This document shows positions 1 through 32,370 of a DNA stretch of 64,000 bases, one piece after another. Origin of the DNA: Pirellulales bacterium (GTDB lineage: Bacteria; Planctomycetota; Planctomycetia; Pirellulales; Pirellulaceae); contig JAXMBN010000022.1 of assembly GCA_046349875.1 (NCBI GenBank), positions 34,274 to 98,273 on the forward strand, given 5' to 3'. Both the position numbers and the translations under genes were made by a program. The notes below the pieces were generated by a model, which had not been told where the DNA came from, made no database searches, and saw only the letters and a program-made list of their open reading frames with translations. Each line of letters begins with the position of its first letter. Position 1 is the first letter of the stretch.

Positions 1-496
1 GCGTCTTCTCTTCGATCTAAGTCACCTTGCAATTCAGACTGATTCCACACGACTCATCACCATCATGTTAGCTGGGTCAAGCTTCGCTCCACCTATTGAA
101 GGCGTATCATTGGGACATCATGATCTTTCGCACCACGGAAAGGATCCCGCCAAACTGGCTCAGCTGAAGATCGTCGAGTTGGAAACCATGAAAACGGTAG
201 GAGAACTTCTTACTAAACTTAAGCAATCCATTGAAGGTAGCGAGAACTTGCTCGATCGAACCACAGTATTCCTTGGAAGCAATCTTGGTGATGGAAGTAG
301 CCACTCCACCAAAAACCTACCTGTTCTTCTGGCAGGCGGTAACTTTCGACATGGTCAACACTTGGCGTTCGATGCTGATAATCCACCACCATTATGCAAC
401 CTTTACGTCAATATGCTCCAGAGCCTCGGTATTGAAAAAGAGTCATTCAGTAGCAGTACAGGAACCATTGCTGGATTGGAAATCAAGCCAAACTAA
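1..496 (+). CDS. DUF1552 (HXXSHH-family) protein, C-terminal fragment. The gene starts upstream of the window.
   Basis: ORF 65..496 is in the same frame as sequence running to the window edge. Motif LGHHDLSHHGKD matches HxxSHH. This family is typical of Planctomycetes. Confidence 0.6.
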   Translation, partial: RLLFDLSHLAIQTDSTRLITIMLAGSSFAPPIEGVSLGHHDLSHHGKDPAKLAQLKIVELETMKTVGELLTKLKQSIEGSENLLDRTTVFLGSNLGDGSSHSTKNLPVLLAGGNFRHGQHLAFDADNPPPLCNLYVNMLQSLGIEKESFSSSTGTIAGLEIKPN

Positions 497-514
497 GTGA
501 AATGATTTCTTGAT

Positions 515-2342: not shown

Positions 2343-2456
2343 AATCCTGAACCTATTCTCTCAAAGGTGAAAAACGGTGAGCGTTGGAGCACTGTAGTCA
2401 GGTCGCCGTCTTTGGAAAGTCCCTCTTCTCCGGATACTTGATATCCCCCACCACTC

Positions 2457-2520
2457 GCCACAAGGTGCCATCCACCTTTTGTTGACGCCCCACACAAGGT
2501 GCCAGCCACCTACTGTTGAC
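2457..2520 (+). repeat. Left terminal repeat pair (two ~27-bp units, A-type then B-type).
   Basis: Unit 1 is gccacaaggtgccatccaccttttgttgac (2457-2486). Unit 2 is cccacacaaggtgccagccacctactgttgac (2488-2520). Confidence 0.7.
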
Positions 2521-2543
2521 TTCGGAAGTTGTCGCGCTAGGAT
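2516..2543 (+). promoter_or_regulatory. Candidate sigma70-like promoter inside the left repeat (TTGACT-16 nt-TAGGAT) driving the transposase.
   Basis: The repeat unit ends in TGTTGACT. TAGGAT lies 16 nt downstream, about 20 nt before the ATG at 2563. Hexamer match only. Confidence 0.25.
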
Positions 2544-2562
2544 TCATCGGAGGAGTTGAATC

Positions 2563-3795: not shown

Positions 3796-3980
3796 TTTTT
3801 TCTACCACTACTCCATCTTCAAGCGATCTCAAACGACACTCTGTCTAGCGGTCCGCGCATTCTCTCCCATCGAAAGGCATTTTCGCCTTCTTCTGGCATC
3901 CATCTCTGCCAAAAGCCGAACCGAATGAGCTCTCTAAGCTCATTTTCAGCCCCCAAAACCTGCAAACGAACCCAAATTCC

Positions 3981-4045
3981 GTCATCAACAATAGGTGGCT
4001 GACACCTTGTGCGCGGGTCAATAAAAGGTGGATGGCACGTTGTGT
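3981..4045 (-). repeat. Right terminal repeat pair (inverted copies of the left units, B' then A').
   Basis: gtcatcaacaataggtggctgacaccttgtg (3981-4011) and gtcaataaaaggtggatggcacgttgtg (4018-4045). Each differs by 2-3 mismatches from the reverse complement of the left unit. Confidence 0.7.
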
Positions 4046-4500
4046 TGAAAGCGTGGCGATAAGATATTGGGCATGCTCTGTTTAGAGATGGTGGATTCCA
4101 CCGCTCATTCCCGAATGGATGCGATGGTTCTTTCCAGATCGTGGTGATTTCCTGGCTGCCGTTGGCAATCTCTCATCGTGCAAGCTTTGCTGGCAATTTC
4201 GCCGCGGATTCAAAAGTGGCGCACGATCTATGCCATTGTTTTCGATTTGCTTTCCCGAAGAGATCCAAGAGCTTCGACTCAGTGACAATAGCTCTTTTTG
4301 GGATCAGGGTTACCCGGCATTGATGCTGACGGATACCAGCTTTCTCAGAACCCTTACTATCATCAACCCACCGACACCCCTGACACGTTGGACTACCAAC
4401 GTATGACCGACGTCACACTCGGCGTTGCCTCCACCCTCCAACACCTCGACTCCTAACTCAAAAGAAACGCTCTTTGTTGGCAATTAATGATCAACTTGTG

Positions 4501-7500: not shown

Positions 7501-7623
7501 AATCGGCTCTTGTCCTTGAATCGGCCGCATTCCAACTGCCACCCCAAACACCACAAGAATGGCTAAACACCAACACTTCGTTGGAGAGCTTTGAGGATCA
7601 AAATGTGAATTTCGTATTCTCAT
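4501..7623 (-). CDS. Hybrid sensor histidine kinase / response regulator: signal anchor, ~480-aa periplasmic domain, TM, coiled coil, PAS, HisKA, HATPase and C-terminal REC.
   Basis: HisKA region AGHLAGGIAHDLNNTL. HATPase GTGLGLAVVHGIV. REC ILLVDDEPSV...ITDYSMPQMTG...KPF. The ORF is open to 7878, but MRIRNSHF...CWCLAILVVFGVAVG (start 7621-7623) looks like the signal-anchor start. Confidence 0.8.
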   Translation of the reverse strand: MRIRNSHFDPQSSPTKCWCLAILVVFGVAVGMRPIQGQEPIRTTFEAKYLSAEEAAKQLPVVLHGVITCVPEGWKGFFLEDASGGIFCEALNSEAEASFWPMEVGEEVELHGVSAAGHRNSFVMVSKIASRSKGVLPNPKLRTIQNIIDDRVDADFVRVRGHIVGLTNIAGQMEYGLLSEGVEALVFHSSFRIDPKVYEPSEVEVCGIVIPQEGNARPVKIIVPNPESFKMLATHLDILDATPVSTVEESLLKSSIKNPVVRIAGDIFCSDADETWLVEKGFGIDWKLNNTILPEGTKRVEVLGVLKREGDRQWLQYGTVLSTSSAAAGRTIARGKPVANTTEYRNQMVTLNATYWDVSAFHSEVILSFYAGDSKLTCRLVDDVATRTLPKLQRGAEYRVSGLLTPVSMDNVDTQVLLIRSLADIDWVAGPPWPIRFTLYIVSMLSAGLALGLATTIYCWKQANTAKSRLEIARNELHRANESLEARVVDRTLELDTTNRRLVEEAKARQLVEREQKETLASLEDAQSLGQMGSFIWQADTGCSSWSKQCFVIHGLDPSQRPPTVEEYCALVAEEDRTAFQEYLEQATRSSDREDFQYRIVLPNQEVRWIRCLIRSHHVDGVLSSMDGIVQNVTEQVKAEEQLRYSVKMEVAGHLAGGIAHDLNNTLAIVNLNCYLLGAELRKLPISQQVTEHVSAIESASEKSALLTRQLLTFSRKQIIRPVVLNINSSVQSFGPLLRQLIPNRIHIHFDLAENLANVRLDQGQLEQLLMNLVLNARDAITDEGRIGVRTSNVVIASEEDGVAWIVKPKTGSYVSLWVTDNGNGIAPECLPKIFEPFYTSKGPEKGTGLGLAVVHGIVRQNHGGLAVTSVPNQGTTFQLLMPIVQNKDDGAAVDPLDLGLQPVANQFRSTPERKESILLVDDEPSVGKHTEHVLKHLGYSVTTVTAAAEGLQQLLESPNSFQLLITDYSMPQMTGSELANKVRAVVPKLPVILMSGYLNEEAFQSMTAGENPIFVQKPFTIPDLAASILKALKQSEVLR

Positions 7624-7966
7624 TCGGATATTCCAGAACCTAATCCTGATAGCGCCACGAACTCCAATGCTCGGCGGGTACTTAGTTTGAGGATTCCCTA
7701 TTTGGATCTCAACATGCCCTCCCACTTTTTTGGGTAACTTCTCGACCTTTCCTTTTCCCTTCGCGTCGACTTTCTCCCCTACAACACATACCGAAATTTC
7801 GCAGTCTTGCCTGCGTAATCTGGATATTGGTGATCCGATGCCGCGGAGCGAACTACATAGCGAGTTCATGCTATGCATTCCTTAGAGATTCATCGAAACC
7901 CCAAGAACTAAAAAACGAGCGACAGTTTCAACTATGGCAAGATAGAACCGCTAGCGATTCGTTTGG

Positions 7967-9829
7967 TCAGTCTATGCTTGACTCTTCGACTCCCCATTGG
8001 CTTTTCGAAAGGGATCGATTCGTGGCACGAAAATATGCGTCACAAGCCAAAAATGCAGAAACTGCATCGCGCGAACTACCTTCTGCGGAATCGCTTTTGT
8101 AGATATCCGGCGATGAATCTTGGCGAACGGCGTGAACCAAATCTTCAAGTAGTTGAGAAGCGGTTGGCAACATAAGCCTACTGAATAGCAGGCGATCGCG
8201 TCGATGCGACTTACTTGCTAGGTCGGGAACCGAATCCCGACCACCTAATACCAAACCAATCAGACGGCGATCTAGAGGAGCCGTATACTTGGCGTTCGAG
8301 TTCACCAAGTGGCCGTTGCTTTCCATGTCTATTTCTTCCGACCATCGCTCGATGCCACGGATGTAATGCCGTTCCAAGCGATCGAGACCAAAACTGCAAA
8401 CCTCTTGCCAGGTGTCGGGCAATTCCAGTAAGGGCCTATTATGGTCGTCACCGGTCGGCAATGGTGCGATCCCATGGACTGCCATAAGGTCCGCACTCAA
8501 TGGTTCATCCCATTTTACTCGGACTAAACATCGTAATCGAAGCCGAGGACATCTCGCGAGCAATTGCAGGTTATGCCTGAACTCCAGTTCGGGCGCGTCG
8601 ATAGCGATCCCCAGCTTCCAATGTTGCGTTACATCATCTACCTGAACCACAACCTTCGCATCGAGAGCTCCAACTACCGTCGCATCGAATGCGATCAAAT
8701 CCCAACCCGCCGGACGATGATCTTCAGGAATGTCTAGCCATGCAAAGACTGCCCGGACTTGCTGCGCGACCGAATCGCTGAATCTACCAAAACGAAACGG
8801 TTGCGTTGACTCTTTTTTCGCCAGCGCCCAGCGTGTGGTTTTCCCCTTGCCCAATCTTCCATCACTCGATGCCGTTAACTCTTGCACTGTATAGGTACTG
8901 CGGCAGAGAGATTTTGCTTCGACGGTTACTCCACCTAATTCTATTCCCCCGCGATAGGCTTGATGAACCAAACTCATGTCACCGGTTCGCAATTCGTTCA
9001 CCGTATAAAGGTCACCTTGCGCCGTATCCTGCATGAGCACACTAACGCCTGCGAATCCGCTTCGCGTCCATATGGGCTCGGCCATGATCCCATTCAATTT
9101 TCGGACATCGATTTCTTCGAATGAACGGCGAGCCTGACCGATAATCCATCGAGGAACGTTTGCATGATTTGCAATCCAATGGCAAGCCAGCAACGCTGAA
9201 GCCACATCCTCTTTCAACAACGGAGAACTAGCTTGGTCGGATTGCTGCCGGAATCGCTGGACACCTTCGGCTATTCGCAAGACCGTATGACTCAAGGCGT
9301 ACAACTCCGAAACGCGGCATGTGTGTCCCGCTCGAAGCATCGTGGATTGGACCAAAGTTCCTGCATTTCGAGCACCGACTTGCAACAATGTTGCCAGCGA
9401 TTCGCGAACCTTGCTTGCCGCGCTTCGCATCGATTCGGTCACCTCAACCATCGGGTTCGGTCTCGACGAATTCGCCTCCGATGTGAAGGCCTCTTTCGTC
9501 GCAATCAAGTCCTCCGATTCAGAAAGAACTTGAACTTCATCCGTATTCAAGGAGAGGCAGCTACAGCAAGCAAGAATGTGAAAGCACTTAGGGGCCATCA
9601 AGCAGGTGCAAGAAACTTGATGGATCTTTTCGAGAGTGCCGTTTGCACTCTCCAAACGAACCGTCTCCTCATGGGCTTGAACAGTCCAGATAAGTTCGGT
9701 TTGTCTCCAAATCCAAGTTTCCGCTATCCCAGGACTGCCATCCAAGCGTTTACGGACACGCCCGGGAACTTGTTCAACAAGTTCGGCAAGAAGTAGCGGG
9801 GCAATCTTGGGGCGTTTGGTGTCAGACAA
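7967..9829 (-). CDS. SWIM zinc-finger domain protein (YehQ-like), 620 aa, intact.
   Basis: CxCx5CxH signature in QVSCTCLMAPKCFHILAC. Size and context match the SWIM component of the yehLMPQ / SWIM-AAA-DUF5682-VWA cluster. Confidence 0.65.
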   Translation of the reverse strand: MSDTKRPKIAPLLLAELVEQVPGRVRKRLDGSPGIAETWIWRQTELIWTVQAHEETVRLESANGTLEKIHQVSCTCLMAPKCFHILACCSCLSLNTDEVQVLSESEDLIATKEAFTSEANSSRPNPMVEVTESMRSAASKVRESLATLLQVGARNAGTLVQSTMLRAGHTCRVSELYALSHTVLRIAEGVQRFRQQSDQASSPLLKEDVASALLACHWIANHANVPRWIIGQARRSFEEIDVRKLNGIMAEPIWTRSGFAGVSVLMQDTAQGDLYTVNELRTGDMSLVHQAYRGGIELGGVTVEAKSLCRSTYTVQELTASSDGRLGKGKTTRWALAKKESTQPFRFGRFSDSVAQQVRAVFAWLDIPEDHRPAGWDLIAFDATVVGALDAKVVVQVDDVTQHWKLGIAIDAPELEFRHNLQLLARCPRLRLRCLVRVKWDEPLSADLMAVHGIAPLPTGDDHNRPLLELPDTWQEVCSFGLDRLERHYIRGIERWSEEIDMESNGHLVNSNAKYTAPLDRRLIGLVLGGRDSVPDLASKSHRRDRLLFSRLMLPTASQLLEDLVHAVRQDSSPDIYKSDSAEGSSRDAVSAFLACDAYFRATNRSLSKSQWGVEESSID

Positions 9830-10065
9830 GAATCACAATCCTTTGGCAAACACGGTCGTTCACTTCCACACATTCAGGGCGAACATCACCAGGATAGTTA
9901 TATCGAAAACCCAAGCCAACTCGATATCTACATTGCCGATTCTTATCGCGGCTCTTATCACTTTTGAATAACGTCCTATATTCCCCTTTCGTGCTATCCA
10001 TCCGTTATGATGATGGATCGTAAAAGCAATCGGTGAATCTTCTCTCCCTCGTCTTCGAATTCATC

Positions 10066-10986
10066 ATGGCAAAAGCGAAAGCTAAAACTAGTTCCTCCGC
10101 CGAATCAACCACGGCGTGGATCGATGGCCCTCAATCGTATCAGCTTGGTATTCAACAAGGAAAAGTTGTTTGCAAAAACCCCAAAGGCAAGGAGCTTGCT
10201 TCGTTGCCGGCTGCTATCAAGGACGATCCTGTCACGGATCAACTCCAGGCACTTGTGACATGGTTGGAAGATCATCGCATGGAATGTCTCCATACGGTCG
10301 AGCGGTGGATGTTGCGATCGCTGATCATACCACGTCAAACATTGGTGGAAGTTTGGCCGGATCCCGATTGGCGAGCTTCGCTGGAGAACATGGTGATTGC
10401 TCCATCGGGTGCAGATGGAAATGTGGAACGCGATCACTATGGATTGCTCAAAGATGCCGATGCAAACAAAGGCTTAGGAATTATCGATCTCGACGGCGAA
10501 TCGAAGTGGCTTCAATCACCATGCGTTGCCTTTCTTCATCCCATTTTGATTGGCGAATTGGAGGAACTACGAGATCTTGCGAATGACTTAGGAATCGTCC
10601 AACCAGTCGAGCAACTCTACCGTCCCGTCTTTCGTCCCATGCCGACCCAAATCGAACTCACTTCCATTCGCGACTATGAAGATGGCGAATTCGATCAGCT
10701 CAATTTTGCGCTGGGTCATTGCAAGAGACTTGGATATCCCGTGCGGGGCGGCTATGCCATTTGCAAAGTATGGGAGGGAGTTGCTCCCCTTGAAGCTCGC
10801 TACTATGTGGGAAGCGAATCACCTGAAAGCCCGACGATTACTGGCGATCTTATCTTTGTCGACCAAAAGCAACAGTCCGTTCCGATCCGGAACGTCGGCC
10901 CCGTAACCTTTAGTGAAGGTGTTCGTATGGCATCTTCCATCTACGCCAAACGCAAAGTCGAAAAGGCGGAAGGAGAACCATCATGA
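10066..10986 (+). CDS. Hypothetical protein (about 306 aa), first gene of a plus-strand block divergent from the SWIM gene.
   Basis: The ORF is open from a GTG at 10033. The ATG at 10066 (MAKAKAKTSSS) is the likely start. Protein-like composition, no recognised motif. Its stop overlaps the next start (ATGA at 10983). Confidence 0.5.
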   Translation: MAKAKAKTSSSAESTTAWIDGPQSYQLGIQQGKVVCKNPKGKELASLPAAIKDDPVTDQLQALVTWLEDHRMECLHTVERWMLRSLIIPRQTLVEVWPDPDWRASLENMVIAPSGADGNVERDHYGLLKDADANKGLGIIDLDGESKWLQSPCVAFLHPILIGELEELRDLANDLGIVQPVEQLYRPVFRPMPTQIELTSIRDYEDGEFDQLNFALGHCKRLGYPVRGGYAICKVWEGVAPLEARYYVGSESPESPTITGDLIFVDQKQQSVPIRNVGPVTFSEGVRMASSIYAKRKVEKAEGEPS

Positions 10987-11375
10987 GTCGAGAATGGGCC
11001 CAATCGCAACTCGAAGCCGGCGGAATGGTCAATGTTCAAACCTTGATCGATGACAAATCGACCGAGACGATCATTGCACGATCCTACAGCGCTCCAGTGC
11101 TCGGCGACCGCGTGATCATTCGATTGACTTCGGAGCGACTAATGCCAGCCGAAGATCTATCGATGGAGTTTTTAGGATTGGAGGGCAAAGGGATCAGTAG
11201 GCCAATTGCCAAACAACATCGAACGGCACTGGAGTTTGGCCATTGGGCACTCATCCACCAACCCAAGTACGCCAAGTATGCACTTGATCTTGTGAAACGC
11301 ATGAAGGGTGCAGCGACGAAAAGCGGTTTCCAAAGCTGGTCATGCTTGGGATCTCTATGTAGCCATGGCCGATGA
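10983..11375 (+). CDS. Hypothetical protein (130 aa). It may be the N-terminal part of the following gene, joined through a frameshift.
   Basis: The ATGA stop/start overlap with the upstream gene suggests translational coupling. The last ~15 aa (QSWSCLGSLCSHGR) look like out-of-frame junk, while the overlapping frame of ORF 11308 looks protein-like. Confidence 0.4.
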   Translation: MSREWAQSQLEAGGMVNVQTLIDDKSTETIIARSYSAPVLGDRVIIRLTSERLMPAEDLSMEFLGLEGKGISRPIAKQHRTALEFGHWALIHQPKYAKYALDLVKRMKGAATKSGFQSWSCLGSLCSHGR

Positions 11376-12897
11376 GCTCAATCAGTCGGTCAGACACTTT
11401 CTTCCGGCTTTTTGGGAGCAAGCGGCACGAGCCTATAAAGAGATTGGCAACACGACCTATGCGGGTCGTGCTCTATCCAAAGCTCTGGAAGCGGAACGGG
11501 TACATTCTTTGGAAGTGGATCGCGAACACAGACGCGATGCTATTCTCGAATTCACTCTGAGTGGTTGCTTATCTGGTAAAGCTCTGACGGAATACGCCAA
11601 AGATCTCGAAAAACAGTTTCCTCCCTTAGAGGCTTACGAAACTTATAAAGATCTGATCATTCGTCGAACGATGGGAGGAATGGCGCCGACCGTGACGACA
11701 GCAACTGACCTCACTCGCATGATCAAGGCAGCCAAGCTCGAAGTCAATGCAGAGATCGAAGCGGTCCTTGAATCGATCATTACTTCTCCTGCCATGGTAA
11801 GAGCTCCACTGCAATTTTGGCGTTCCGTGAAGAAGCAGGTTGCCAACCTCGTCCAGCGAAAACCTTCCTTTGCGGTATGGTTGCTCTGTCATACGAATGC
11901 GGCCTCGTCCTACCGTGCTGACAGCCCCGTATGGGAATGGATCGATTTGCTCGAAGAATGGAATGTCCTTCCATACCTTTCGATGCCCGCCTCGCAATTT
12001 CCATCGGGTGTCGAGATACCTGGCGGAAGATCGGGATGGTTCTCGAGGGTGGCTTCGGTCGAAACATCTCCCAACAAACGGATTTTTGACCTCTTAGAGC
12101 AGATGGCGGATGTGATTCGAGATGAAAAGCAGCCGATTCAACTTCATACTGGCCACTACGCTCGGATGGATGTCGACCTTGTCGACCGACTCTTGGCTCT
12201 GAACATTGCCATTGCCGAACCGCCTAAGAACTATGAGCTCAATTTTGATGGATGGTTTCGTGAAGAAGTCGATCATCCTCATCGCAATTCGCAGCTCATC
12301 AACGTATGTTCGACGGAACCCTATCGCACGAAGTTATTGGAACAGTTTCCGACGCTGGTCAAATTTCAAGGCGATCGAACCAAGCAGCCATGGGGAAGGA
12401 CACTCGCACCGCGTCGAGCCTTTGAAGAAGCCGCCGTTGGTCATGATCGCGTGAAACAGTTTTGGTGGGAATTTCTCGACAAACAACTAACAAGCCTTGA
12501 AAAAGGTGGTCTTGCCGATTTTGAAATAGCTCAAGAACATCTCGATGGTTGTTGTCGTGCGAAGACCGCCGAGCAATTTCCTGCGTTGGTTGACCGATTG
12601 AAAAAAATGGACATCGCAGCGTGTCTTCATCGAACGTTGGTAGCAGGGATTCTGGATGAGTATGGTTGGGACGAACTCGATCGCGTAACGGACGATCATC
12701 CAATGCCGCAAGTTCAACGGTATGGGGACCGCAAGATCTTTTTGGCGTTCCCACATCTCTGCTGGCACGAAAAAGACACGCTTTATTGGGTTTCGCCGAC
12801 AGCCTCTTCGCGTTCCGAGCTTCTCATGAAGTCGGGCCAGACTCTTCAATTTGTCGTCCGCGTTGGCTCTCAATTTGCCATTTCTTTACCACGATAG
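11308..12897 (+). CDS. Hypothetical protein (529 aa).
   Basis: Long clean ORF. An alternative ATG lies at 11365 (MADELNQ). Overlaps the 10983 ORF by 68 nt in another frame. No recognised domain. Confidence 0.5.
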   Translation: MQRRKAVSKAGHAWDLYVAMADELNQSVRHFLPAFWEQAARAYKEIGNTTYAGRALSKALEAERVHSLEVDREHRRDAILEFTLSGCLSGKALTEYAKDLEKQFPPLEAYETYKDLIIRRTMGGMAPTVTTATDLTRMIKAAKLEVNAEIEAVLESIITSPAMVRAPLQFWRSVKKQVANLVQRKPSFAVWLLCHTNAASSYRADSPVWEWIDLLEEWNVLPYLSMPASQFPSGVEIPGGRSGWFSRVASVETSPNKRIFDLLEQMADVIRDEKQPIQLHTGHYARMDVDLVDRLLALNIAIAEPPKNYELNFDGWFREEVDHPHRNSQLINVCSTEPYRTKLLEQFPTLVKFQGDRTKQPWGRTLAPRRAFEEAAVGHDRVKQFWWEFLDKQLTSLEKGGLADFEIAQEHLDGCCRAKTAEQFPALVDRLKKMDIAACLHRTLVAGILDEYGWDELDRVTDDHPMPQVQRYGDRKIFLAFPHLCWHEKDTLYWVSPTASSRSELLMKSGQTLQFVVRVGSQFAISLPR

Positions 12898-14923
12898 CAC
12901 CGATGGTTGGAAGTCCTATCTCAAATGGTCATCGGATCCCAACACTTCCACGTACAACCGGGTTGGTATCTTTTCCGATCGCTGGCACTCAACGGTCGAA
13001 GTGGGAAGTGATGGAATCTTTTCAGGCGAACGTACTTTTCGCGAAGGCGATACGGTTGTTCCTCAAACTCAGCCTCACTGGTACCACGATGGTCAACGAT
13101 TTTGGCTGCTTCATGGAGGGCAGCATCGGAATTATCGAGATGCAGGAGAGCGAACGTACGTTACCGAGGTCGATCCGAATTCGGGAAAGACCATTCGAGA
13201 AAGCGTGCCTCCTTTCTTTGAAGAATCGCTGCCACCTGGTTCGCGAATGGAATTTCCCTTTTCCTATTTGAGAACGAAACCCAATCAACCAGGAAATTCA
13301 CCACTGGGAGAGAAGGATGGACTGATCGGGCTTCGCTGTTTTCATCGGCGGGATGGGGCCGTTGAATCCCAAGGGATCGATGGAAGAACGTGGTTATTTT
13401 CCCAGGAAGAACAACCATCTCAATATCCATTAGCCGCGCTCGCCATCATCAATAAGCCAGGCTCGAACGCTTATTGGATCGCGGCCTCAAACAACGTACT
13501 TATTGATTCGGAATCCCGGATCGGTATTGGCTTTTTTGCCGAGCGTTCCAAGTACTTTGCAGGATGGCCAAGCGAATTGCCGATGCCCTATTTCTTCCAT
13601 TTGATGCGAGTACGATGCGAGAAGACCTCTCAAGCACTGCGAACTCTTTCACGCAATGATTCGGACAAACTCTGCAAAGCAGGCGAGACCGAACGGGAAG
13701 CACGGCGTAAAAAACCAGATCCCAACATTCCTGATCCGCAACGCGAAGAAACAACTCGAGTCGCAACCTCATTGTTTCCCCAAGCTCCTCCGCGACTCAT
13801 CCGCGGCCTGACAAGTATCGTGAAGATTGCCGCAGATGAGAAAGCTGCAATCCAGAATCTGCTCAAGCGACTCGAGCCACGCGAAACCAGTTCTTCGATT
13901 CCGATCTATAAAGACGAGCTTGCCAAACCCGGCTTCAACGAGCTGGTTATGGATCCGCCCGAACGACTCTCAACCTATTATTACAACGAAGAAACCCTGA
14001 GCGAACACATCCAACTGGTTGCGCAGTATTTTTCAGGGAAGGATCCAGAAGCATTCGTCAAGTGTCAACGCTATTGGTTTGTGCTGCTCGAGAATTTGCC
14101 AGGCGTCGCTTGGAAGACGTTTTGGAAACAGATCGTTCGCGACGATCGTCCGAGTGATCTCAAAGCTCTCAAGGACCAGCCTTGGGCCCATGCATTGGGA
14201 CTCCTTGCTCATTCTGGGTTGCTCGATCTACCTGGAAATCTGTGCCTGTTCCGCTGCAGCGACGAAGCATCGGCCAAGTTACCGCAAGATTTTCGTCAAA
14301 AACTGGACGAGTATCACAACGTCTTTTTTGCCGAAGGAAAGAGTCGCTACATCGCTTATCGATTCTATTCTCATATTGGTGAGAGAATTTACCTTTTGGG
14401 ACACAATCCCAAAGGGGAGTGCAAAGTTCCCAAGCCCTTCGTCGTCGATTCGACGATCCCTATCGATCTCGTATGGAAGCGAAGCCATCTTCTCGCGTTC
14501 ATCCACGCGTTATTAAACTGGACTCTCTTCCATTGCCTTCGCGCGAACAGCTGGACGCTGCCGCTCATCGATTGGGGCTACACCCCATCAGCGTCGGGAT
14601 GTTATGGATGGGGAAAATGTCGAACCAATCCCTACGGGCAGAGAAACTCTCCAAAGAAGTGCGCGGAGAACATTATGAGATGGAAGGTCAAAGACATACA
14701 GATTGCCGTTGCTGAATTGAAGGCACTCACGGTACCAAGTAGTCTTTCCACTCACTGCATTAAGGATCCAGGCTACCTTCTTCGCAAAGTAGGCCTAGTT
14801 TTGAATCCATGGTTCAATGTCTTGAAGAAGGCACGCCGAGCACTCGCCTTTTCCTCCCGAACTCAGCCAGAATTGCAGCGAGCCTTTCCCAGGTTATGGA
14901 CTGCCAGCCAAGGAATTCCATGA
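12851..14923 (+). CDS. Hypothetical protein (690 aa).
   Basis: Long ORF overlapping the previous ORF by 47 nt in a different frame (possible frameshift or true overlap). Trp/Tyr-rich soluble protein, no recognised domain. Confidence 0.5.
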   Translation: MSSALALNLPFLYHDSTDGWKSYLKWSSDPNTSTYNRVGIFSDRWHSTVEVGSDGIFSGERTFREGDTVVPQTQPHWYHDGQRFWLLHGGQHRNYRDAGERTYVTEVDPNSGKTIRESVPPFFEESLPPGSRMEFPFSYLRTKPNQPGNSPLGEKDGLIGLRCFHRRDGAVESQGIDGRTWLFSQEEQPSQYPLAALAIINKPGSNAYWIAASNNVLIDSESRIGIGFFAERSKYFAGWPSELPMPYFFHLMRVRCEKTSQALRTLSRNDSDKLCKAGETEREARRKKPDPNIPDPQREETTRVATSLFPQAPPRLIRGLTSIVKIAADEKAAIQNLLKRLEPRETSSSIPIYKDELAKPGFNELVMDPPERLSTYYYNEETLSEHIQLVAQYFSGKDPEAFVKCQRYWFVLLENLPGVAWKTFWKQIVRDDRPSDLKALKDQPWAHALGLLAHSGLLDLPGNLCLFRCSDEASAKLPQDFRQKLDEYHNVFFAEGKSRYIAYRFYSHIGERIYLLGHNPKGECKVPKPFVVDSTIPIDLVWKRSHLLAFIHALLNWTLFHCLRANSWTLPLIDWGYTPSASGCYGWGKCRTNPYGQRNSPKKCAENIMRWKVKDIQIAVAELKALTVPSSLSTHCIKDPGYLLRKVGLVLNPWFNVLKKARRALAFSSRTQPELQRAFPRLWTASQGIP

Positions 14924-16024
14924 ACGATCGTAGCGCCCCATGAAGCCGGCTTCACGAAAGCGAGAAAAATTGAATTTAAGATTCCAACTAAAGCCAATTC
15001 TGCTAATACTCTTCGGAAGTTGGAAATCACACCTAAGCACGATTTGCTTCATGCGTTCGATAAAGTGGCCGACCTTCTTGTGCATTGATCAATTACCACT
15101 TGCCGGTAGGACATTCCGTTCGCAAAAAGCTCCCCGATGCATTGGGGCGATTCGAGCTTTTGTCGACAACTCCCGAAACACTCCTCCCAGTGGGACACAG
15201 CTATCTATCGTACGATGCTCAAAAGCCAATGTCGATGCGATCATCATGGCGACGGCTTCAACGATGGGTAAATATGAAGATAGTAGCGGTATCTATCGCT
15301 GCGATTCGGAACAGTTTCTTGTTGCAACCGTTCCTCCTCAGGTCCAATGCTTCTTCCGGACCTCGAAGTTGCGGTCGGTCAAAGACCTCCAACGTTGCAA
15401 GGTTCACTTCAGCCTTTAATGGATACTCCATCCTATTTGAGCTTGAGCTGATGAATGTCGACTTTGCCGTTCAAATGCGATCGGAAGCGATGACGCGTCT
15501 CGTTGAATGCAGTGAAACCTCAGGTGCAGAAGCCATTGGGAACAAAACCCCTTGCTTTCCGTTCCAAACTTGGTTGAAGAATGCGCACAGGCCTTTACAG
15601 TTGGATACGATGTCAAAAGCTGGCAACATCTTCAGATTCTCGCCTTACCCGATCCCACGATTGCCAATGGGCAGTGGAATGAATGGAACACGAACCAAAT
15701 CAATCGTATGAGTGCACCCTTATTGAACGTGCGGCTGGTTGAAGCGAAGCGAAACGGGCGGGAAGATCTATTCTTACCAGGTGGTTGGGAACCATTGAAA
15801 GCTCCAACCTGCCCATTCGAAATGTCCTGGAAGCTACCGCTGTTCGGATGAAAATGCGATCGACTTCGTGGAGGAATGGCCGAATCCCTGATTGTATTGG
15901 GTTCCGGCCACGTCGAAGTTCGAGAACGCATGGAACCGATCGTCTGGAAAACCAGCTTATGCGGAAGCCCCATCAAAGCGAGCAAGTCTAAAAAAGTAAC
16001 TATGGCCAAAAAATCATCAAAACG

Positions 16025-16892
16025 ATGACCTCCTCTTTGGCGTCGGACCATCCAGCCAGCCAACCCATGCAGTTACCACCGGCAGATGTTCGGTATCAAA
16101 AGGAGCTTGTTGCCCTTCGCGAAATCGATACCAACGACAAGCCTGATGGATGGCTTCTCTCGCCTCAAGCAGTTGTTGATTTCATTTGTGGCACCTGCGG
16201 GATAAAAGATTGGTGCCAATCGGTCCGAGAAGCGATGGTAATTACCGAGAAATTCGTTGGTTCGCGAGACTTGATTCAACGGTGTGTGGTGACGCTAGCC
16301 GGAGAACGCGGACTGCTGCTAGTCGGCGAACCTGGAACAGCAAAGTCGATGCTTGAGCTGCTGGCTGTTGCCATCAGTGGAACGAGTGGGCTGGCCATTC
16401 AAGGAACCGCTGGAACGACGGAGGATCAAGTTGATTACGGTTGATTATGCAGTACTTCTTGATCGGACGGCCCTACACCGGAGGCATTGTGGTCCCTTCG
16501 CCGTTTATCAAGCCATGCGATCAGGATGCATTGTTCGCTTTGAAGAAGTCACGCGTTGCTTGCCAGAAGTGCAAGATGGCGATTTCGATCTTGACGAAAG
16601 ACGTATGATGGTACCGGAACTCGAAGGGAAGCATCGAGCCTTTTCGCCATTCCTGGATTCAATGTCCCGCCACGGCAAACTTACGGGACCGAGGATTTTC
16701 CGAGATGTCAGCTGCTTTGAAAAAGGCGTTTCAGTGCGAAACCATTGCACCGATCCAAGATATGAAACGCGAGGGTCAAACTCGTATGCAACGTGCGACA
16801 ACCTTACTGACGAGGTGAGCACGATCCCCATCGATCGATACGGCATTGGTGAATATCTTAGTGGAGATCTTTCGCGACTTAAGGAATGGTAG
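16025..16892 (+). pseudogene. MoxR-like AAA+ ATPase (AAA_5 / YehL-like), interrupted by a +1 frameshift at about 16440.
   Basis: Walker A LLLVGEPGTAKS sits in ORF 16025..16444 (frame 2). The Walker B / sensor region IVRFEEVTRCLPEVQ...VPELEG continues in ORF 16353..16892 (frame 0). The junction coincides with a 10-bp tandem near-duplicate gttgattacg/gttgattatg (16430-16449). Confidence 0.7.
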
Positions 16893-16932
16893 GACGAATG
16901 AAGGATGGCAAGTGCAACAGCCTAGCACGGTG

Positions 16933-19900
16933 ATGAGTACTGCCGAAGCCGTGGCCGTAACGGCCGCCATTCTTCGCGAAGGAGCGTTTTCCCATCTGGA
17001 TTTGATCCGCTGTCGCGGCTGCCGGTCACTTGCTGAATTGGTCATGAAGGACGATGCCAAAGATCGCGAACGTTATTGCATTACTGGGATGATTTGTTCA
17101 CGACGCCGAAGCGAATCAGGTCATCCTGTGGAAACGGCTCAGTGAACTCGGAGCCAGGTCGAGGATGAGCGATAGTCGTGGATTTTCAAAACAGATCGAT
17201 CTGCTCGCTCAATGTCGACTGCCTTACTTGATCGGCGTGCGCGTCACCATTCTGCGGCGATCGCAAGAGCATTGCCAACGTTGCTTTCCTCGATGCAACC
17301 CGAGAGCCTCTTGCTGGAGATGCCGAGGATTTCCTTGACTGGATTCCACATCTGGCCGACGAGGATACGGTGGCGCTGTCGCGATGTTGCGGATCCGCAT
17401 AACCCAATCTGGCCTTCTATCCATTGGCCGATTTTTTCTCCCGAATTAACAGCCATTCGCTGGGCCCATCGCCATCAAATTCCAGTCCGCTTCCTTTCGA
17501 TCTTTCATGAGCGCTTGGGATTCTCGACTCAAAAGTCGATGCTCTTCAAAACGCGTTATCGACGTGGCAACAACAGCAAAAAGGCGATCGAACCATTGAG
17601 TGATGCTTCGTCTCCTAATGCATTGATGGCACTGCTTGCACGCACGCACTCGGAAGATACGGGACAGTTGTGGGAGCGATTGATCGAAACACCCGGAATC
17701 ATGGAAGATCCGAATCGATTCGGCGAGCTGCCTTACTCTTTGGGTGGGCGATTCGCCAAAGCACTGCGACCGTTTCGATTCAGAGATCGTTGCGGGAAGC
17801 ATGCGTCAGGCAATTCGCGAAGCCATGCATCCGTGCGTTGCCATCATCGGGTCATTCCATGCGAGCAGTCTGTTGCCAAGCGTTGTTGAATCATCGTGCG
17901 ACCATGACCGCTTCCTTCTCGACCTCATTGCCGAAGATATCGAAGGTTGAGTGTCTCCCTCAGATTGGACTCAGTTTTGAGCAATTGGATGAGCGTAATG
18001 GATACCCTGCAGGAATTCGCGATCCCGATAACGATCGAATGATCAGCCAAACCGCGGCGGAAATCGATTTGGCTGCGACGCAAATCATCGTCGATGTTGC
18101 AGAACGGTATGTAGGGACATGTCGCAGGCACGCCTGATGCCTGCAGGTCTATTGCATGATGCGCGATCTCGCTAACTGCCGGACTCCCGATTGCGGGACG
18201 TGGCGAGTTGATTGAATCGATCCGAGGGCTTGGTACAAGGTACGCTTTATGGCCACTTGCACGAGAAGTCGCGAAGTCTGTTGAAGCCATCTTGATCGGT
18301 AACCGTAAAGAAGGGTTACGGCGAAGGCACCGCGCTGTGGACTCTCTTATCGATAGAGGACCTATTCAAGTTTCTCAAACTTCCCATAGATGAAGTCAAA
18401 AATCAAACTCGATGTCCTGCGCGATGGACGAGATCACTTGCTGAGCAGTTGTCTTGCGTCAACTATGTGACCAACATCCCTTATGTCGACACATCGACCG
18501 ATCGGCAAGGCAACCGCGAAAACCTTATCGAAAATTGGGCTGGATTTCGTCCAGGGCACAAGTGCTTCCATTGAAGCTGTATCGCGATTTGGGGTCGCGT
18601 TGCCCAAGTCGTCGAAGGAATCCTTCAATTGCAGTCGCCTTCTCAGGATTCGGATGAATGGACCCCGACGTTCTTGTTGGATCGTTGCGATCGCATCGGA
18701 GTGTGGCCTTCATGGGCTAACTCAAAAATGGATCGAGCTATTCACTGGTCCCTTTCTACGGGCCGCGGGACTACACGAGCTTGTTGAAGCGGCTACGCGT
18801 ATTGGACGCATTGCTGCAGGCCATGTCCCAGGACTTCCACCAAGCTGGACAAGAAGAGTACCCTCGATTCTTACCTATTTTCCGTGTACGAATTGGGTCG
18901 ATCGCCTTGTGATTCTGCTTCGCACTCAGCAGTCGCCTTTCTGGATTGGCGGGATCACGGGAACCATCGGATGTCGTTGGCCTTTGTGAATTGGGGCATT
19001 GGTTACGAGGCAGTGTGCGCCAGCACATCGTTGTCAGCAAATGAAGAATCGATGCGAGTTTTGTTCAGGCCTCCTCAACTCATTCACTGGTGCCCAAATC
19101 AAACGCAACGCCGAGGTAGCGATCGAATGCGAGGCGCGCAGGCGCTTTCATTGTATATACATGCTTGAGGAACAAACACGCGAGGATCTTGCGAGCTTGC
19201 TGCATGGCTGGATCGATGATGCCTCAGACCAAAGTCGCGATCCCAACTACGCTATTCCTTGCAGGCATGGTGCAAGTTCTATTGCGATGATGCAATCCGT
19301 GCCCGAGTGGCTTCAAGGTCTCGGCACTTGCCTGCAATCAATGGATGATCAATCGTTCTTGAAGGCGACTTCCTGCTCACGAGGCGCGTTCACGAATGTT
19401 CTCCCGCTGATCGCCAGCCGCATTCTCGACGCTCGAACAGATCGACGATCCAGGATTGGAGATGTCTTTAGGTAACTATTCCGATGAGCATGATCAAGAC
19501 GCGACCGTGATGTTGACGTGCGACAAGCCGACTTGAGCAAGTTGCAGTGGCTGCCATTTCCCGGAATGCTTCTTCCTTGCGATAGTGCACTTCCTTCGAG
19601 CCCCACTGAAGCCTCCTCTTCAACCTTCTCGATAAACAGTCTAAGGCCATCTGAAATTTCAATTGCCGATCGCTGGCGTATGATCATGGGAACGCCACCG
19701 CAACAGGATTCGCGAGGCCACCATGCAGCACGGAGTCTCGATCACTTATATGGCGAAGGAAAGGGAGAGGGTGCGAGATCAGGCTTGTCGAACGAAGGGA
19801 CGAGAGGAGGGAAGGGGGGCGGAAGAGAACAACCAGTGCCAACCGCGGCCGAATGGGCCGATGACGAAGCACTGTTCGGCTCGGATGTGCCAAGAAGTCC

Positions 19901-20100
19901 TTGGTGCTTCGGCGACCTCTGGCAATCTCAACGCCGGTCAACGCGTTGGACCCGGACACGATGATGCCGAGTATCGATCCTCCTCCAACAAGTCTTGTCG
20001 TTGGCTGGAGGATCATCCGAACGAAGAACGCAACGCCTTCGCGCAATCGCCAAGAAGGATAACAGAGCAACTCGCACAAGCTCGCCGTGCGATTGAGGCC
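16933..20100 (+). pseudogene. About 3 kb of protein-like fragments in all three plus frames. Probable remains of a large DUF5682-like (YehM-like, TraB/GumN-like) gene.
   Basis: Fragments in alternating frames that read like real protein: MSTAEAVAVTAAILREGAFSHL; AIEPLSDASSPNALMALLARTHSEDTGQLWERLIETPGIMEDPNRFGELPYSLGG; FDSEIVAGSMRQAIREAMHPCVAIIGSFHASSL; LSFEQLDERNGYPAGIRDPDNDRMISQTAAEIDLAATQIIVDVAERYVG. No ORF exceeds 225 aa. Minus-strand ORFs here are low-complexity. Confidence 0.4.
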
Positions 20101-20108
20101 GCACGTGA

Positions 20109-20793
20109 ATGGCTTATCCACGGCGAGACCAACGAGGCGTCGAAATCGTCGCCTCAATCTGCACTGGACGATTCGAGGCAAATCTTGCCAATGCGATTCG
20201 GCGAGACGATGGTCGGCCAACCATCGTGGCAAAGAATCTTATCTTTAACTCTTCGTCAAAGCGCGAGATGGATTGGCATCTAACGTTTGTGGTCGACGTT
20301 TCGGGATCGATGACCTCGTCCGTTGTCTATAGTGCCCTTTGCGCGCTTGATCTTTGCGCAGCTTCTCTTTGTCCATTCGCTTTCTTGCTTTCAGCACACA
20401 AGTTGTTGACCTGAGTGAGCGTAACTGATCCGCTGACTCTGTTGTTGGAGGTTCGGATTGGGCCGGAACTCATATCGGGCTGGGTTACGACACGCTCGAG
20501 CAGGTATACGTCTTACCGCCCCGATCGTTGGTCGTGGTTGTTTCGGACTTTGAAGAAGGTGTCTCTCTGGTGAACTCATAGCGGCTAGAGCATTGGTTGA
20601 GGCTGGAGTCAAATGTCTGGGATTGGCTGCTCTGGACGATAAAGGGGTGGCTCGATTTCATCAGGGATTCGCCCACCTGGTCGCGTCGGCGGGCATGCCC
20701 GTGGCAGCCGTGAGCCCCGAGCGACTAGCGCAATGGGTTGAGGGACCAGATCCGTGGTGTTTAGCCCCGATGGGTCGGGCAACGAACAAGTAG
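20109..20793 (+). pseudogene. von Willebrand factor A (VWA) domain protein (YehP-like), split across three frames.
   Basis: MIDAS DxSGSM in LTFVVDVSGSMTSS (frame 0, stops at 20414). Second MIDAS block LVVVVSDFEEG in frame 2 (20522-20581). C-terminal block LEAGVKCLGLAALDDKGVARF...VAAVSPERLAQWVEG in frame 1 (20593-20793). A possible upstream extension lies in frame 1 from about 19950. Confidence 0.65.
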
Positions 20794-21059
20794 AGACCCA
20801 ACAAGTGAGGGGATAACTTTGCTTGCTACCATCGAACCGTTATTGTGTTCGAGCCTTATCCTTGTGATGAGTCTCGGTTGATTTCACCACGGTGTTGTAG
20901 GCTCTGAAAATAGAGCAACTTGTGCTGGAGGTAACTTTCGCAAAACGCTTTTGCTTCTTGATAGAAAGGGGATGTTCGTCCCATGGGTGAGATTGTCACT
21001 TTGGAGCCAATTCAGGTGGCGGTTCAACGCTTCGGCTCGCCCAACGCATGGCATGCTTC

Positions 21060-21842
21060 TCAAATTGCACCATCGCTCGTTCCACCTCGCGGAAGCGACA
21101 CGGTCGGAATACCCTCATACTCACCCTTCGGATTGGTCCAGATTTGAGTCCACGCTTTTCCTTGAGAGTAGAATCGTTTGAGCCAAAAAGCCGCTAAATC
21201 CGATTCATCCACGTTGGGTGCGGTTAGAACGGCCGCCCGAGCGTACATCATTTCTTTGGAAACGATCTCTGGTTCTTCCCTCCATCGTTGAATCATTTGC
21301 GCATCAACACGCAATCGGTCGCGAGTTGGAAATAAGAATCGATCCACAAAGATCTCATGCTGAAAAGACATGGATCGCAATTGCGGAAACTCGCAATAGA
21401 TAGTCATTTCGGAAAGCGTGCTCGCCTCGTGTTCATTATCGCGAATCTTATTCTTGAAGGTGATCGGATCGGTACACACATGAGCCGAATCCGGTCCATA
21501 GGGCATGGTCGCGGCGTGGCAGATTTCATGGAGATAATAGAGATCCTGCACAAGTGCATTATCATAGGTTCGCAGTTGAATACCGCCCCACCATGGTGAA
21601 AAATGGGGTGCCTCAACGAACTCCTTGTGAACCTTGCCTTGTGGGTCCATTACTTCCACAAAAACCTCGGACGGTTCGTAGAAGAATCGTGGCCTACGTG
21701 CAAATTTCTGAATCAATTTTGCAACAAGCCCTCCCTCATCATACGACTGCCGCAACATCTCCGTCTTGAGAAGTTGATGGCGTATGAACTCCTGACACTC
21801 TTTGGCGTGTGGTAACGCAATTACCTTCTGCATGAAACACAA
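21060..21842 (-). CDS. Hypothetical protein with an HExxH-like motif (possible metallopeptidase-like domain).
   Basis: 260-aa ORF with the motif YYLHEICHAATMPY. It sits immediately after the VWA remnant on the opposite strand. Confidence 0.45.
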   Translation of the reverse strand: MCFMQKVIALPHAKECQEFIRHQLLKTEMLRQSYDEGGLVAKLIQKFARRPRFFYEPSEVFVEVMDPQGKVHKEFVEAPHFSPWWGGIQLRTYDNALVQDLYYLHEICHAATMPYGPDSAHVCTDPITFKNKIRDNEHEASTLSEMTIYCEFPQLRSMSFQHEIFVDRFLFPTRDRLRVDAQMIQRWREEPEIVSKEMMYARAAVLTAPNVDESDLAAFWLKRFYSQGKAWTQIWTNPKGEYEGIPTVSLPRGGTSDGAI

Positions 21843-21851
21843 ACTCCTGGC

Positions 21852-32210: not shown

Positions 32211-32370
32211 CCGGCGATAGCGTTGACCGCTTAACCTTCGATCGGATGCAAATGCAATGTCGTCCGACAACTCCTCTTCAACGAGTCCTGCGTGTCAAAA
32301 GCTGGCTCTCTTTTCTCAAACTCATTACCATCCAAGAGGGTCTGTCTTCTCTCTCGCAGGAGTTTCGTTC

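What the first reader, a model, noticed from the sequence alone, without database searches (positions are those of the whole stretch)
7967..20793. A SWIM / MoxR-type AAA / DUF5682-like / VWA module (the yehLMPQ-like cluster) with three of four components broken
The window holds an intact SWIM zinc-finger protein (CxCx5CxH), a MoxR/AAA_5 ATPase (Walker A GEPGTAKS), a ~3-kb stretch of protein-like fragments where a DUF5682-sized gene would sit (including a TraB/GumN-like VAIIGSFHASSL), and a VWA protein with DVSGSM and LVVVVSDFEEG MIDAS blocks. This matches the gene set of the conserved, functionally uncharacterised E. coli yehL-yehM-yehP-yehQ and actinobacterial SWIM-AAA-DUF5682-VWA(-DUF4132) cluster. 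Here the layout is unusual. SWIM is divergent and separated from the ATPase by 6 kb of unknown genes. The ATPase, the DUF5682-like region and VWA together carry at least 8 frame disruptions in about 5 kb, while flanking 3-4-kb genes are clean. That indicates either a decaying copy of the module or a locally error-rich assembly. Either way it is a chance to define what this module looks like in Planctomycetes.
Basis: partly seen in the sequence, partly recalled or inferred. Interest (0 to 1): 0.8.

Follow-up and report, generated by a model that had tools for sequence, protein, structure and literature searches.

The report
Intact yeh-type operon, broken by assembly errors
The window holds a genuine SWIM / DUF4132 / giant protein / MoxR ATPase / DUF5682-VWA operon of the E. 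coli yehI-yehQ type, but its "broken" genes are almost certainly a 6.6-kb stretch of sequencing or assembly errors, because other assemblies of the same bacterium carry the genes intact.

Summary
The domain content is real. There is a SWIM-finger gene (7967-9829, minus strand), a DUF4132 gene (10066-10986), a YehL-type AAA_5 MoxR ATPase (about 16025-17168) and a DUF5682::VWA_CoxE fusion (17165 to about 20765).

The damage is far larger than "at least 8" disruptions. Against a near-identical contig (GCA_036704275.1) the window has 204 indel events across these three genes, 194 of them frame-breaking. They concentrate in one block, 14514 to about 21100. That block starts mid-gene and ends inside an unrelated neighbouring gene.

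The indels are 1-5 nt, show no homopolymer bias, and come with about 190 extra mismatches spread evenly over codon positions. Logan contigs from other sequencing runs are 99.7% identical to the window in its clean parts. They agree with the GCA contig without a single gap and show intact genes.

Verdict: an uncorrected, long-read-like error block, not gene decay. What remains is an ordinary Pirellulales member of the uncharacterised YehL-subfamily MoxR/VWA cluster. It has lineage-specific features: the DUF5682-VWA fusion, the giant partner protein and a relocated SWIM gene. Interest is low.

The parts
7967..9829 (-). SWIM-finger protein. The ORF is 620 aa from TTG at 9829, and homologues align from about 9727. 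It is intact in this assembly and equals MFO0923583.1 / U0905_13975.
9830..10065 (.). Divergent intergenic region between the SWIM gene and the DUF4132 operon. It is presumed to hold the promoters, which was not tested.
   Evidence: Sequence read. The function is inferred only.
10066..10986 (+). DUF4132 protein (306 aa), intact. It is the first gene of the operon and overlaps the next gene by 4 nt.
10983..15999 (+). Giant conserved gene that encodes 1,679-1,750 aa in relatives. In this assembly 67 indel events break its frame: isolated ones at 11316, 12881 and 12947/12970, then a dense series from 14514.
   Evidence: Intact orthologues are seen. The frameshift-aware alignment is and the indel list. 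Logan contig L019 reads 748 aa of it without a break. The family has 517 representatives. A DUF4132::giant fusion exists as P0341. There is no Pfam or PDB match.
16025..17168 (+). YehL-subfamily MoxR AAA+ ATPase (AAA_5), 370-384 aa in relatives. In this assembly 28 indel events break its frame.
   Evidence: AAA_5 hits on the fragments and at 7.8e-37 on the orthologue. It is 48% identical to E. coli YehL. An intact 384-aa copy lies in Logan contig L022, which differs from the window by 54 gap openings and from the GCA contig by none. The closest solved relative by sequence is the midasin AAA domain.
17165..20793 (+). DUF5682::VWA_CoxE fusion gene, 1,220-1,281 aa in relatives. The true stop is near 20765 and the apparent stop in the window is 20793. 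In this assembly 109 indel events break its frame.
   Evidence: The orthologue scores DUF5682 1.8e-129 and VWA_CoxE 6.7e-46 in one ORF. Indels are counted. The intact C-terminal 552 aa are in Logan contig L023.
14514..21100 (.). Error-dense block of about 6.6 kb. Over 14500-20900 it holds 202 small indel events and 267 mismatches against a near-identical contig. It is interpreted as uncorrected long-read-like consensus. Sparser window-specific indels flank it at 11316-12970 and 22465-22748.
20840..21842 (-). Unrelated convergent 331-aa gene. The tail of the error block damages its 3' end (6 indels at 20882-21100), and it is annotated as a truncated 257-aa protein, U0905_14035.

Best explanation
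Two things are superimposed.

(1) A genuine five-gene system of the YehL subfamily of MoxR AAA+ ATPases. A divergently placed SWIM-finger protein sits next to an operon: DUF4132 protein -> giant protein of about 1,680 aa -> AAA_5 ATPase -> DUF5682::VWA(MIDAS) fusion.

Inferred mechanism, by analogy with other MoxR/VWA pairs and with midasin. The ATPase forms a ring. Through the MIDAS site of the VWA domain tethered to DUF5682, the ring grips and remodels a partner, most plausibly the DUF4132/giant protein and the SWIM protein encoded alongside. The biological target is unknown.

(2) The frame disruptions are not biology. Positions 14514 to about 21100 are a block of uncorrected sequencing or assembly error in this MAG contig (Pirellulales bacterium, locus tags U0905_). 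About 3% of positions carry random small indels and about 3% carry excess mismatches. The profile resembles a stretch supported by one or a few noisy long reads that escaped polishing. In the organism the genes are most likely intact.
For: For the artefact:
- A contig of GCA_036704275.1 differs from the window by about 1-2% in clean regions, and there at third codon positions (7:6:41). It carries intact genes of 1,679, 370 and 1,257 aa.
- Against that contig the window has 20-47 indels per kb between 14.5 and 21.1 kb, and 0-3 per kb across most of the rest of the comparison (82-36856); a diverged patch at 7751-7960 and bin 4000-5000 (5) are the exceptions.
- Of the 236 indel events in the comparison, 72% are 1 nt and none exceeds 5 nt. 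Missing bases outnumber extra bases about 2:1. Their homopolymer context equals the background.
- Once the baseline divergence is subtracted, the excess mismatches spread evenly over codon positions (79:67:120).
- The block begins at about aa 1186 of the giant gene and ends inside an unrelated convergent gene.
- Logan contigs from runs SRR30183946 and SRR30183947 are 99.66% identical to the window over 4403-13228. They differ there by only four indels (11316, 12881, 12948, 12970), all private to the window.
- Contigs from the same runs over the ATPase and the fusion's 3' half match the GCA contig at 99.0% with 0 gaps and at 98.3% with 3 gap openings. Against the window they show 54 and 59 gap openings.
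- Conversely, where the GCA contig has a broken SWIM gene, the window and Logan contigs agree on an intact one. In every case compared here the Logan contigs carry the intact reading frame.

For the module:
- Pfam results.
- YehL 48%, YehP 34% and YehM 25% identity.
- The operon is conserved in eight related Planctomycetota loci (L001, L003-L008, L010), with 4-nt start/stop overlaps read off in L001, L006 and L010.
- N. pilleata has the order giant-AAA-DUF5682::VWA-SWIM.
- A DUF4132::giant fusion protein exists.
- YehL is a recognised MoxR subfamily (PMC3893208).
Against: - No raw reads could be mapped, so the error origin is inferred from comparison with other assemblies, not shown directly.
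- The sequencing platforms of the MAG and of the Logan runs are unknown to me. Whether the Logan runs come from the same sample as the MAG is also unknown.
- The references differ from the window by 0.2-1.5%, so they could in principle be other strains carrying intact alleles.
- The lack of homopolymer bias is unusual for a polished nanopore consensus. It fits a raw or near-raw read better.
- The mechanism of the module is inferred entirely by analogy. No member of the YehL cluster has been characterised.
Confidence: 0.9

Rival explanations
1. Genuine pseudogenisation. After loss of function, the giant gene, the ATPase and the DUF5682-VWA gene decayed in this strain.
For: The frames are broken in the deposited sequence, and NCBI annotated only fragments. 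The mismatch density in the block (about 4%) is not by itself beyond neutral divergence. Excess mismatches that are uniform over codon positions are also what relaxed selection would give.
Against: - The indel:mismatch ratio is about 0.76:1 (202:267), or about 1:1 against the excess mismatches only. In bacterial mutation spectra it is roughly 1:10 (my knowledge of mutation-accumulation studies).
- The indels show no homopolymer or slippage bias, and no deletion exceeds 5 nt.
- The frameshift-aware alignment found only 3 in-frame stops against about 85 frameshifts.
- The block ignores gene and operon boundaries and damages an unrelated neighbour, while the 5' 3.5 kb of the giant gene, DUF4132 and SWIM are spared.
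- Populations that differ by 0.3% elsewhere have intact genes.
Confidence: 0.05
2. The block is a recombined segment imported from a diverged lineage in which the operon had long been dead.
For: The block has sharp boundaries and raised mismatch density.
Against: - The excess substitutions amount to only about 3% and are not biased to third positions. An old dead allele should show much more substitution, in-frame stops and larger deletions.
- Away from the indels the block follows the same near-identical references as the flanks.
Confidence: 0.02
3. The intact system is an anti-phage or conflict system rather than a chaperone-like maturation machine.
For: A SWIM finger and OB-fold-like domains appear in the SWIM protein. 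E. coli has a WGR-domain protein, YehF, next to its cluster. Search results list yehL/yehM in a paper on H-NS/Hha silencing of horizontally acquired genes (the paper was not read).
Against: No PADLOC model matches any of the five proteins, apart from one spurious 0.008 hit. No effector-like domain (nuclease, protease, pore) was detected by Pfam. The operon is chromosomal and syntenic across the Planctomycetota loci compared rather than patchy.
Confidence: 0.15

Closest known systems
E. coli K-12 yehF-yehH(molR pseudogene)-yehI-yehK-yehL-yehM-yehP-yehQ locus
   Same: It has the same families in the same order: DUF4132 protein, AAA_5 YehL-type ATPase (48% identity), DUF5682 (YehM), VWA_CoxE (YehP) and a SWIM protein last. 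The N. pilleata arrangement shows this order. Function is unknown in both.
   Different: - DUF5682 and VWA are fused here.
- DUF4132 is a small separate protein followed by a giant protein of about 1,680 aa. That protein has no detectable similarity to YehI (hhalign probability 0.5%).
- The SWIM protein has one finger where YehQ has two, and shows no significant similarity beyond the motif.
- In the window's clade the SWIM gene has moved to a divergent upstream position.
- No WGR (YehF) or YehK equivalent was seen.
MoxR AAA+ / VWA chaperone pairs (RavA-ViaA, CbbQ-CbbO, NorQ-NorD, CoxD-CoxE) and eukaryotic midasin
   Same: An AAA+ ATPase of the MoxR family is encoded next to a VWA protein with a complete MIDAS motif. 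The closest solved sequence relatives of the ATPase are midasin AAA modules. The MoxR family is described as having chaperone-like maturation roles (PMC3893208).
   Different: This is a different MoxR subfamily (YehL) with three extra conserved partners (DUF5682, DUF4132/giant, SWIM). No substrate complex is encoded nearby. NCBIfam gives only weak sub-threshold hits to MadB and GvpN.
Unpolished long-read stretches in metagenome-assembled genomes (technical artefact)
   Same: A local block shows about 3% random 1-2-nt indels plus about 3% mismatches. It has sharp ends that ignore genes, and it is absent from independent assemblies.
   Different: Little homopolymer bias is seen, which suggests near-raw read sequence rather than typical residual consensus error. 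The platform is unknown.

Membership tests
YehL-subfamily MoxR AAA+ ATPase | AAA_5 domain with a Walker A P-loop | tested here: met
   AAA_5 scores 1.3e-6 and 5e-4 on the window fragments and 7.8e-37 on the intact orthologue. GEPGTAKS lies at 16325.
YehL-subfamily MoxR AAA+ ATPase | Full-length similarity to E. coli YehL | tested here: met
   The intact near-identical orthologue (L010) is 48% identical to YehL over 369 aa, E 2e-107. No subfamily tree was built.
yehI-yehQ type cluster | DUF5682 (YehM-like) protein encoded next to the ATPase | tested here: met
   PF18934 scores 9.7e-10 and 3.3e-8 on fragments and 1.8e-129 on the orthologue. BLASTP against YehM gives 4e-20.
yehI-yehQ type cluster | VWA_CoxE (YehP-like) protein with MIDAS | tested here: met
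   PF05762 scores 5.5e-6 on a fragment and 6.7e-46 on the orthologue. BLASTP against YehP gives 34% identity, 3e-49. The motifs DVSGSM ... T ... VVVVSDFEEG are present. It is fused to DUF5682.
yehI-yehQ type cluster | DUF4132 protein in the cluster | tested here: met
   PF13569 scores 2.2e-24 on window 10066-10986. YehI carries the same domain.
yehI-yehQ type cluster | YehQ-like SWIM protein | tested here: inconclusive
   The CxCx5CxH motif is invariant. The homologue occupies the YehQ position in N. pilleata. However, BLASTP gives E 0.46 and hhalign gives probability 1.2% against YehQ. A structural comparison with YehQ was not possible because afdb50 was unavailable.
Pfam SWIM (PF04434) | Match to the family HMM | tested here: not met
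   No hit at E <= 0.1 for the window protein or the L001 orthologue. Only the motif supports the label, plus UniRef's 'SWIM-type domain' name for homologues.
Natural pseudogene | Disruptions reproducible in independent assemblies of the same population | tested here: not met
   The Logan contigs (99.7% identical to the window in clean parts) and the GCA_036704275.1 contig both lack the indels, and agree with each other with few or no gaps (0 for L022, 3 for L023).
Natural pseudogene | Natural mutation spectrum: indels much rarer than substitutions, slippage-biased, some large deletions, in-frame stops | tested here: not met
   There are 202 indel events against 267 mismatches. Homopolymer context equals the background and the maximum indel is 5 nt. 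Only 3 in-frame stops were found.
Natural pseudogene | Read-level support for the disruptions | not testable with these tools
   No raw reads are available.
Known anti-phage defence systems (PADLOC-DB 2.0) | Any component matches a defence-system model | tested here: not met
   No hits for four proteins. One 0.008 hit to a type I specificity subunit is judged spurious.
   Pfam at E <= 10 returned only DUF5682 and noise for the planctomycete and E. coli N-terminal regions. This was not tested by structure, because intact sequences could not be submitted for prediction.

The most novel reading that the evidence does not exclude
The 6.6-kb block is a real allele. A localised burst of about 200 random 1-5-nt indels plus about 190 substitutions would have hit a contiguous tract in a lineage only 0.3% diverged from relatives with intact genes. 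That would imply an unknown, strongly indel-prone, tract-limited mutagenic process.
Probability: 0.03. Interest if true: 0.7.

Novelty: new member of a known kind. Interest (0 to 1): 0.15.

Why it matters
The main value is as a caution. The feature that made this locus look interesting, a conserved module caught in decay, is an assembly artefact. NCBI annotated the affected genes of this MAG (U0905_13990 and U0905_14035 checked here) as fragments. Any pseudogene count or 'gene loss' inference drawn from this contig would be wrong.

There is a secondary gain. The comparison defines the architecture of the uncharacterised YehL-type MoxR system in the related Planctomycetota examined:
- DUF4132 plus a partner protein of about 1,680 aa. 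The two are linked by a natural fusion, and the partner family has 517 representatives at 50% identity clustering.
- A YehL-like ATPase.
- A DUF5682::VWA fusion.
- A SWIM protein with OB-fold-like domains.

The two fusions argue that these proteins act as one complex. That is a useful constraint for anyone who studies the E. coli yeh genes.

Tried and rejected
- Exact look-ups of the window's DUF4132 protein and of P0224 found no contig on record. The window's own record could therefore not be inspected.
I went through cluster members instead.
- Loci L013-L018 are only 78% identical to the window, too distant for error analysis.
- A three-way MAFFT alignment with L001 and L006 (60-73% nt identity) showed window-specific non-3n indels from 14 kb onward. 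It was too noisy to characterise them.
- hhalign of the SWIM family against YehQ, and of the giant family against YehI, gave no significant similarity.
- The giant family has no PDB sequence hit, and neither does the fusion protein.
- PADLOC and NCBIfam were uninformative.
- Pfam at E <= 10 gave no TraB/GumN-type hit for DUF5682.
- The afdb50 fold library was unavailable.
- Literature searches returned no paper containing 'DUF5682' in the library searched, and the listed results included no functional study of yehLMPQ.
- Programmed frameshifting was rejected out of hand. About 85-190 shifts in 6.6 kb cannot be decoded.

Full report
**Observation**

- ORF 7967..9829 (minus strand) is intact and carries CTCLMAPKCFH, which fits CxCx5CxH.
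- Fragments on the plus strand hit AAA_5 (16025..16444 and 16353..16892), DUF5682 (17212..17889 and 17670..18137) and VWA_CoxE (20109..20414 and 20593..20793).
- The quoted motifs are at 16325 (GEPGTAKS), 17843 (IIGSFHASS), 20295 (DVSGSM) and 20534 (VVVVSDFEEG).

**What relatives show**

A scan of one genome per species with the DUF4132 protein returned nine planctomycete loci.

- In L001, L003 and L006 (about 80% aa identity), L004 and L005 (about 60%) and L008 (52%), the operon starts with DUF4132 (about 306 aa) followed by one giant ORF of 1,679-1,705 aa. An AAA_5 ATPase follows in L001 and L003-L006, and one ORF of 1,237-1,256 aa that carries both DUF5682 (1.8e-129) and VWA_CoxE (6.7e-46) follows in L001 and L004-L006, where the locus reaches that far. 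L007 (52%) carries the same genes, but the giant and fusion genes are each split into two ORFs there.
- The window's supposedly clean ORFs 10983..11375, 11308..12897 and 12851..14923 are pieces of that gene.
- My frameshift-aware protein-to-DNA alignment against the L001 proteins needed 16 frame shifts in the giant gene, 14 in the ATPase and 57 in the fusion. It found only three in-frame stops. Amino-acid identity within the segments (60-100%) was as high as in the intact genes.

**A near-identical reference**

The protein search found P0001, which is 99% identical to the window's DUF4132 protein. It lies on a 393-kb contig of GCA_036704275.1. There the giant (1,679 aa), ATPase (370 aa) and fusion (1,257 aa) genes are intact.

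- blastn of that contig against the window gives 95.6% identity over 82..20877, and onward to 26564.
- Differences are very uneven. In most clean regions the contig differs by 3-35 mismatches per kb (55 per kb at 3-4 kb and 93 in the diverged 7-8 kb bin) and 0-3 indels per kb (5 in bin 4000-5000). From 14514 to about 21100 it differs by 20-47 indels per kb and 21-59 mismatches per kb.
- Per gene, the indel events are 0 in DUF4132, 67 in the giant gene, 28 in the ATPase and 109 in the fusion. The neighbouring convergent 331-aa gene has 6 more.

**Nature of the differences**

- Of 236 indel events, 171 are 1 nt, 45 are 2 nt and none exceeds 5 nt. Bases missing from the window outnumber extra bases about 2:1.
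- The homopolymer length at deleted bases (51% singletons, 31% doublets) matches the per-base background (55% and 33%). There is no slippage signature.
- In the clean part, mismatches sit at codon positions 1:2:3 = 7:6:41, as expected for real divergence under selection. In the block they are 79:67:120. That equals the baseline plus about 190 mismatches spread evenly.
- The block starts at about residue 1186 of the giant gene and ends inside an unrelated gene on the other strand. DUF4132, SWIM and the first 3.5 kb of the giant gene are essentially untouched.

**Independent assemblies**

The window's SWIM protein is MFO0923583.1 (U0905_13975) of a MAG labelled Pirellulales bacterium. Cluster members led to Logan contigs, which are assemblies of single SRA runs.

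- L019 (SRR30183946) covers window 4403..13228 at 99.66% identity. It has only four indel differences, at 11316, 12881, 12948 and 12970. These are exactly the isolated frame breaks of the giant gene, and all are private to the window. L020 confirms 11316.
- L022 (SRR30183947) carries an intact 384-aa ATPase. It matches the GCA contig at 99.0% with no gaps, but the window at 92.5% with 54 gap openings.
- L023 (SRR30183946) carries the intact 3' half of the fusion and both neighbouring genes. Against the window it shows dense indels up to about 21100, then none until four sparse ones in the 22250-22750 bins (22465-22748 in the GCA comparison).
- Conversely, at 8843 the GCA contig has the broken SWIM gene, while the window and Logan contigs agree on an intact one.
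- In every case compared, the Logan contigs carry the open reading frame, and each long assembly has its own private indels.

**Conclusion on the 'broken' state**

The lineage differs from its relatives by 0.3% elsewhere. It cannot naturally have gained about 200 random small indels and about 190 unselected substitutions in one contiguous 6.6-kb tract that ignores gene boundaries. It would also have had to do so without large deletions and with almost no nonsense codons.

The profile fits uncorrected long-read-like sequence, meaning a stretch supported by one or few noisy reads, or an unpolished gap fill. The sparser errors on either side (11316-12970 and 22465-22748) fit a gradual recovery of coverage. 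I could not map reads, so this remains an inference, at about 0.9 confidence. Elsewhere in the window no other multi-kb run lacks long open frames.

**What the module is**

- The intact ATPase is 48% identical to E. coli YehL over its full length (2e-107). The fusion matches YehP (34%, 3e-49) and YehM (25%, 4e-20).
- The E. coli locus reads yehF (WGR), yehH (pseudogene), yehI (DUF4132), yehK, yehL (AAA_5), yehM (DUF5682), yehP (VWA_CoxE), yehQ (SWIM).
- YehL names one of the seven MoxR subfamilies (PMC3893208).
- In the isolate Neorhodopirellula pilleata the genes run giant -> AAA_5 -> DUF5682::VWA -> SWIM homologue on one strand, with the last two overlapping. That is the yehL-M-P-Q order. 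The divergent upstream position of the SWIM gene is a rearrangement of the window's clade (window, L001, L003, L006, L010, L019-L021). In L005 the upstream gene is an efflux outer-membrane protein.
- The giant protein has no Pfam, PDB or YehI similarity. It belongs to a family with 517 representatives at 50% clustering, mostly 1,550-1,750 aa. One member, P0341 (2,031 aa), carries DUF4132 fused to its N-terminus. This supports DUF4132 and the giant protein acting as one unit.
- The DUF4132 model (pLDDT 88) resembles only an uncharacterised Bacillus protein.
- No PADLOC defence model matches.

**How it most likely works (inferred, not shown)**

MoxR ATPases act with VWA partners whose MIDAS site grips a target that the AAA ring then remodels. 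This is established for other subfamilies and for midasin, which holds the closest solved relatives of this ATPase by sequence.

Three features suggest a single complex: gene order conserved from E. coli to these Planctomycetota, start/stop overlaps, and two natural fusions (DUF5682::VWA and DUF4132::giant). In that complex the YehL-type ring would work through the DUF5682-tethered VWA domain on the DUF4132/giant and SWIM proteins, or on a substrate they bring.

Two hints about the process exist and neither is tested:
- a nucleic-acid connection (SWIM, OB-like domains, WGR in E. coli);
- the old genetic link of molR to molybdate use (reference list of PMC7824862).

I put about 0.4 on the remodelling-complex mechanism as stated, and much less on any specific process.

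**Novelty and score**

The cluster is known but uncharacterised. This is another member with lineage-specific architecture, and its one striking property is an artefact. Interest is 0.15.

Noticed in passing
window 26564-31579: This stretch of about 5 kb is present in the window but absent from the otherwise collinear GCA_036704275.1 contig. It encodes a multi-PAS histidine kinase as two overlapping ORFs (27018..29126 and 29009..31327). These may be one gene split by another indel.
   Followed up: partly
window 33043 (gene 32257..33210, SIMPL/DUF541): A 36-nt insertion relative to the GCA contig (GGAATGGGAGGTGGCTATGGAATGGGAGGTGGGATG). It looks like copy-number variation of a Gly/Met-rich tandem repeat inside the coding sequence.
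   Followed up: no
L010 7903-9936 (GCA_036704275.1 contig JBAJGS010005745.1): The near-identical contig has its own broken SWIM gene, called as 243, 364 and 59 aa. One cause is a base missing at window position 8843, where the window and three Logan contigs agree on an intact ORF. That assembly therefore also carries private indel errors.
   Followed up: partly
window 21850-22990, minus strand: A neighbouring gene of 358-379 aa with no Pfam domain is split in the window by sparse window-specific indels at 22465, 22555, 22728 and 22748. Logan contig L023 has it intact.
   Followed up: partly
window 7750-7960: A short, highly diverged patch (93 mismatches and 20 indels in the 7-8 kb bin) separates the window from the GCA contig. 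It lies at the 5' end of the histidine-kinase gene and the intergenic region. Logan contigs agree with the window here, so it is divergence or error on the GCA side.
   Followed up: partly
window 58597-58657, minus strand: Rfam reports a tRNA match (52 bits, model positions 6-65 of 71) that ARAGORN does not call. It lies in a stretch of about 1.5 kb with little ORF coverage. It may be a truncated or error-affected tRNA.
   Followed up: no
P0341 (2,031 aa, from the representative library): A natural fusion of DUF4132 (aa 38-222) to the N-terminus of the giant protein. P0438 carries a partial DUF4132 as well.
   Followed up: partly
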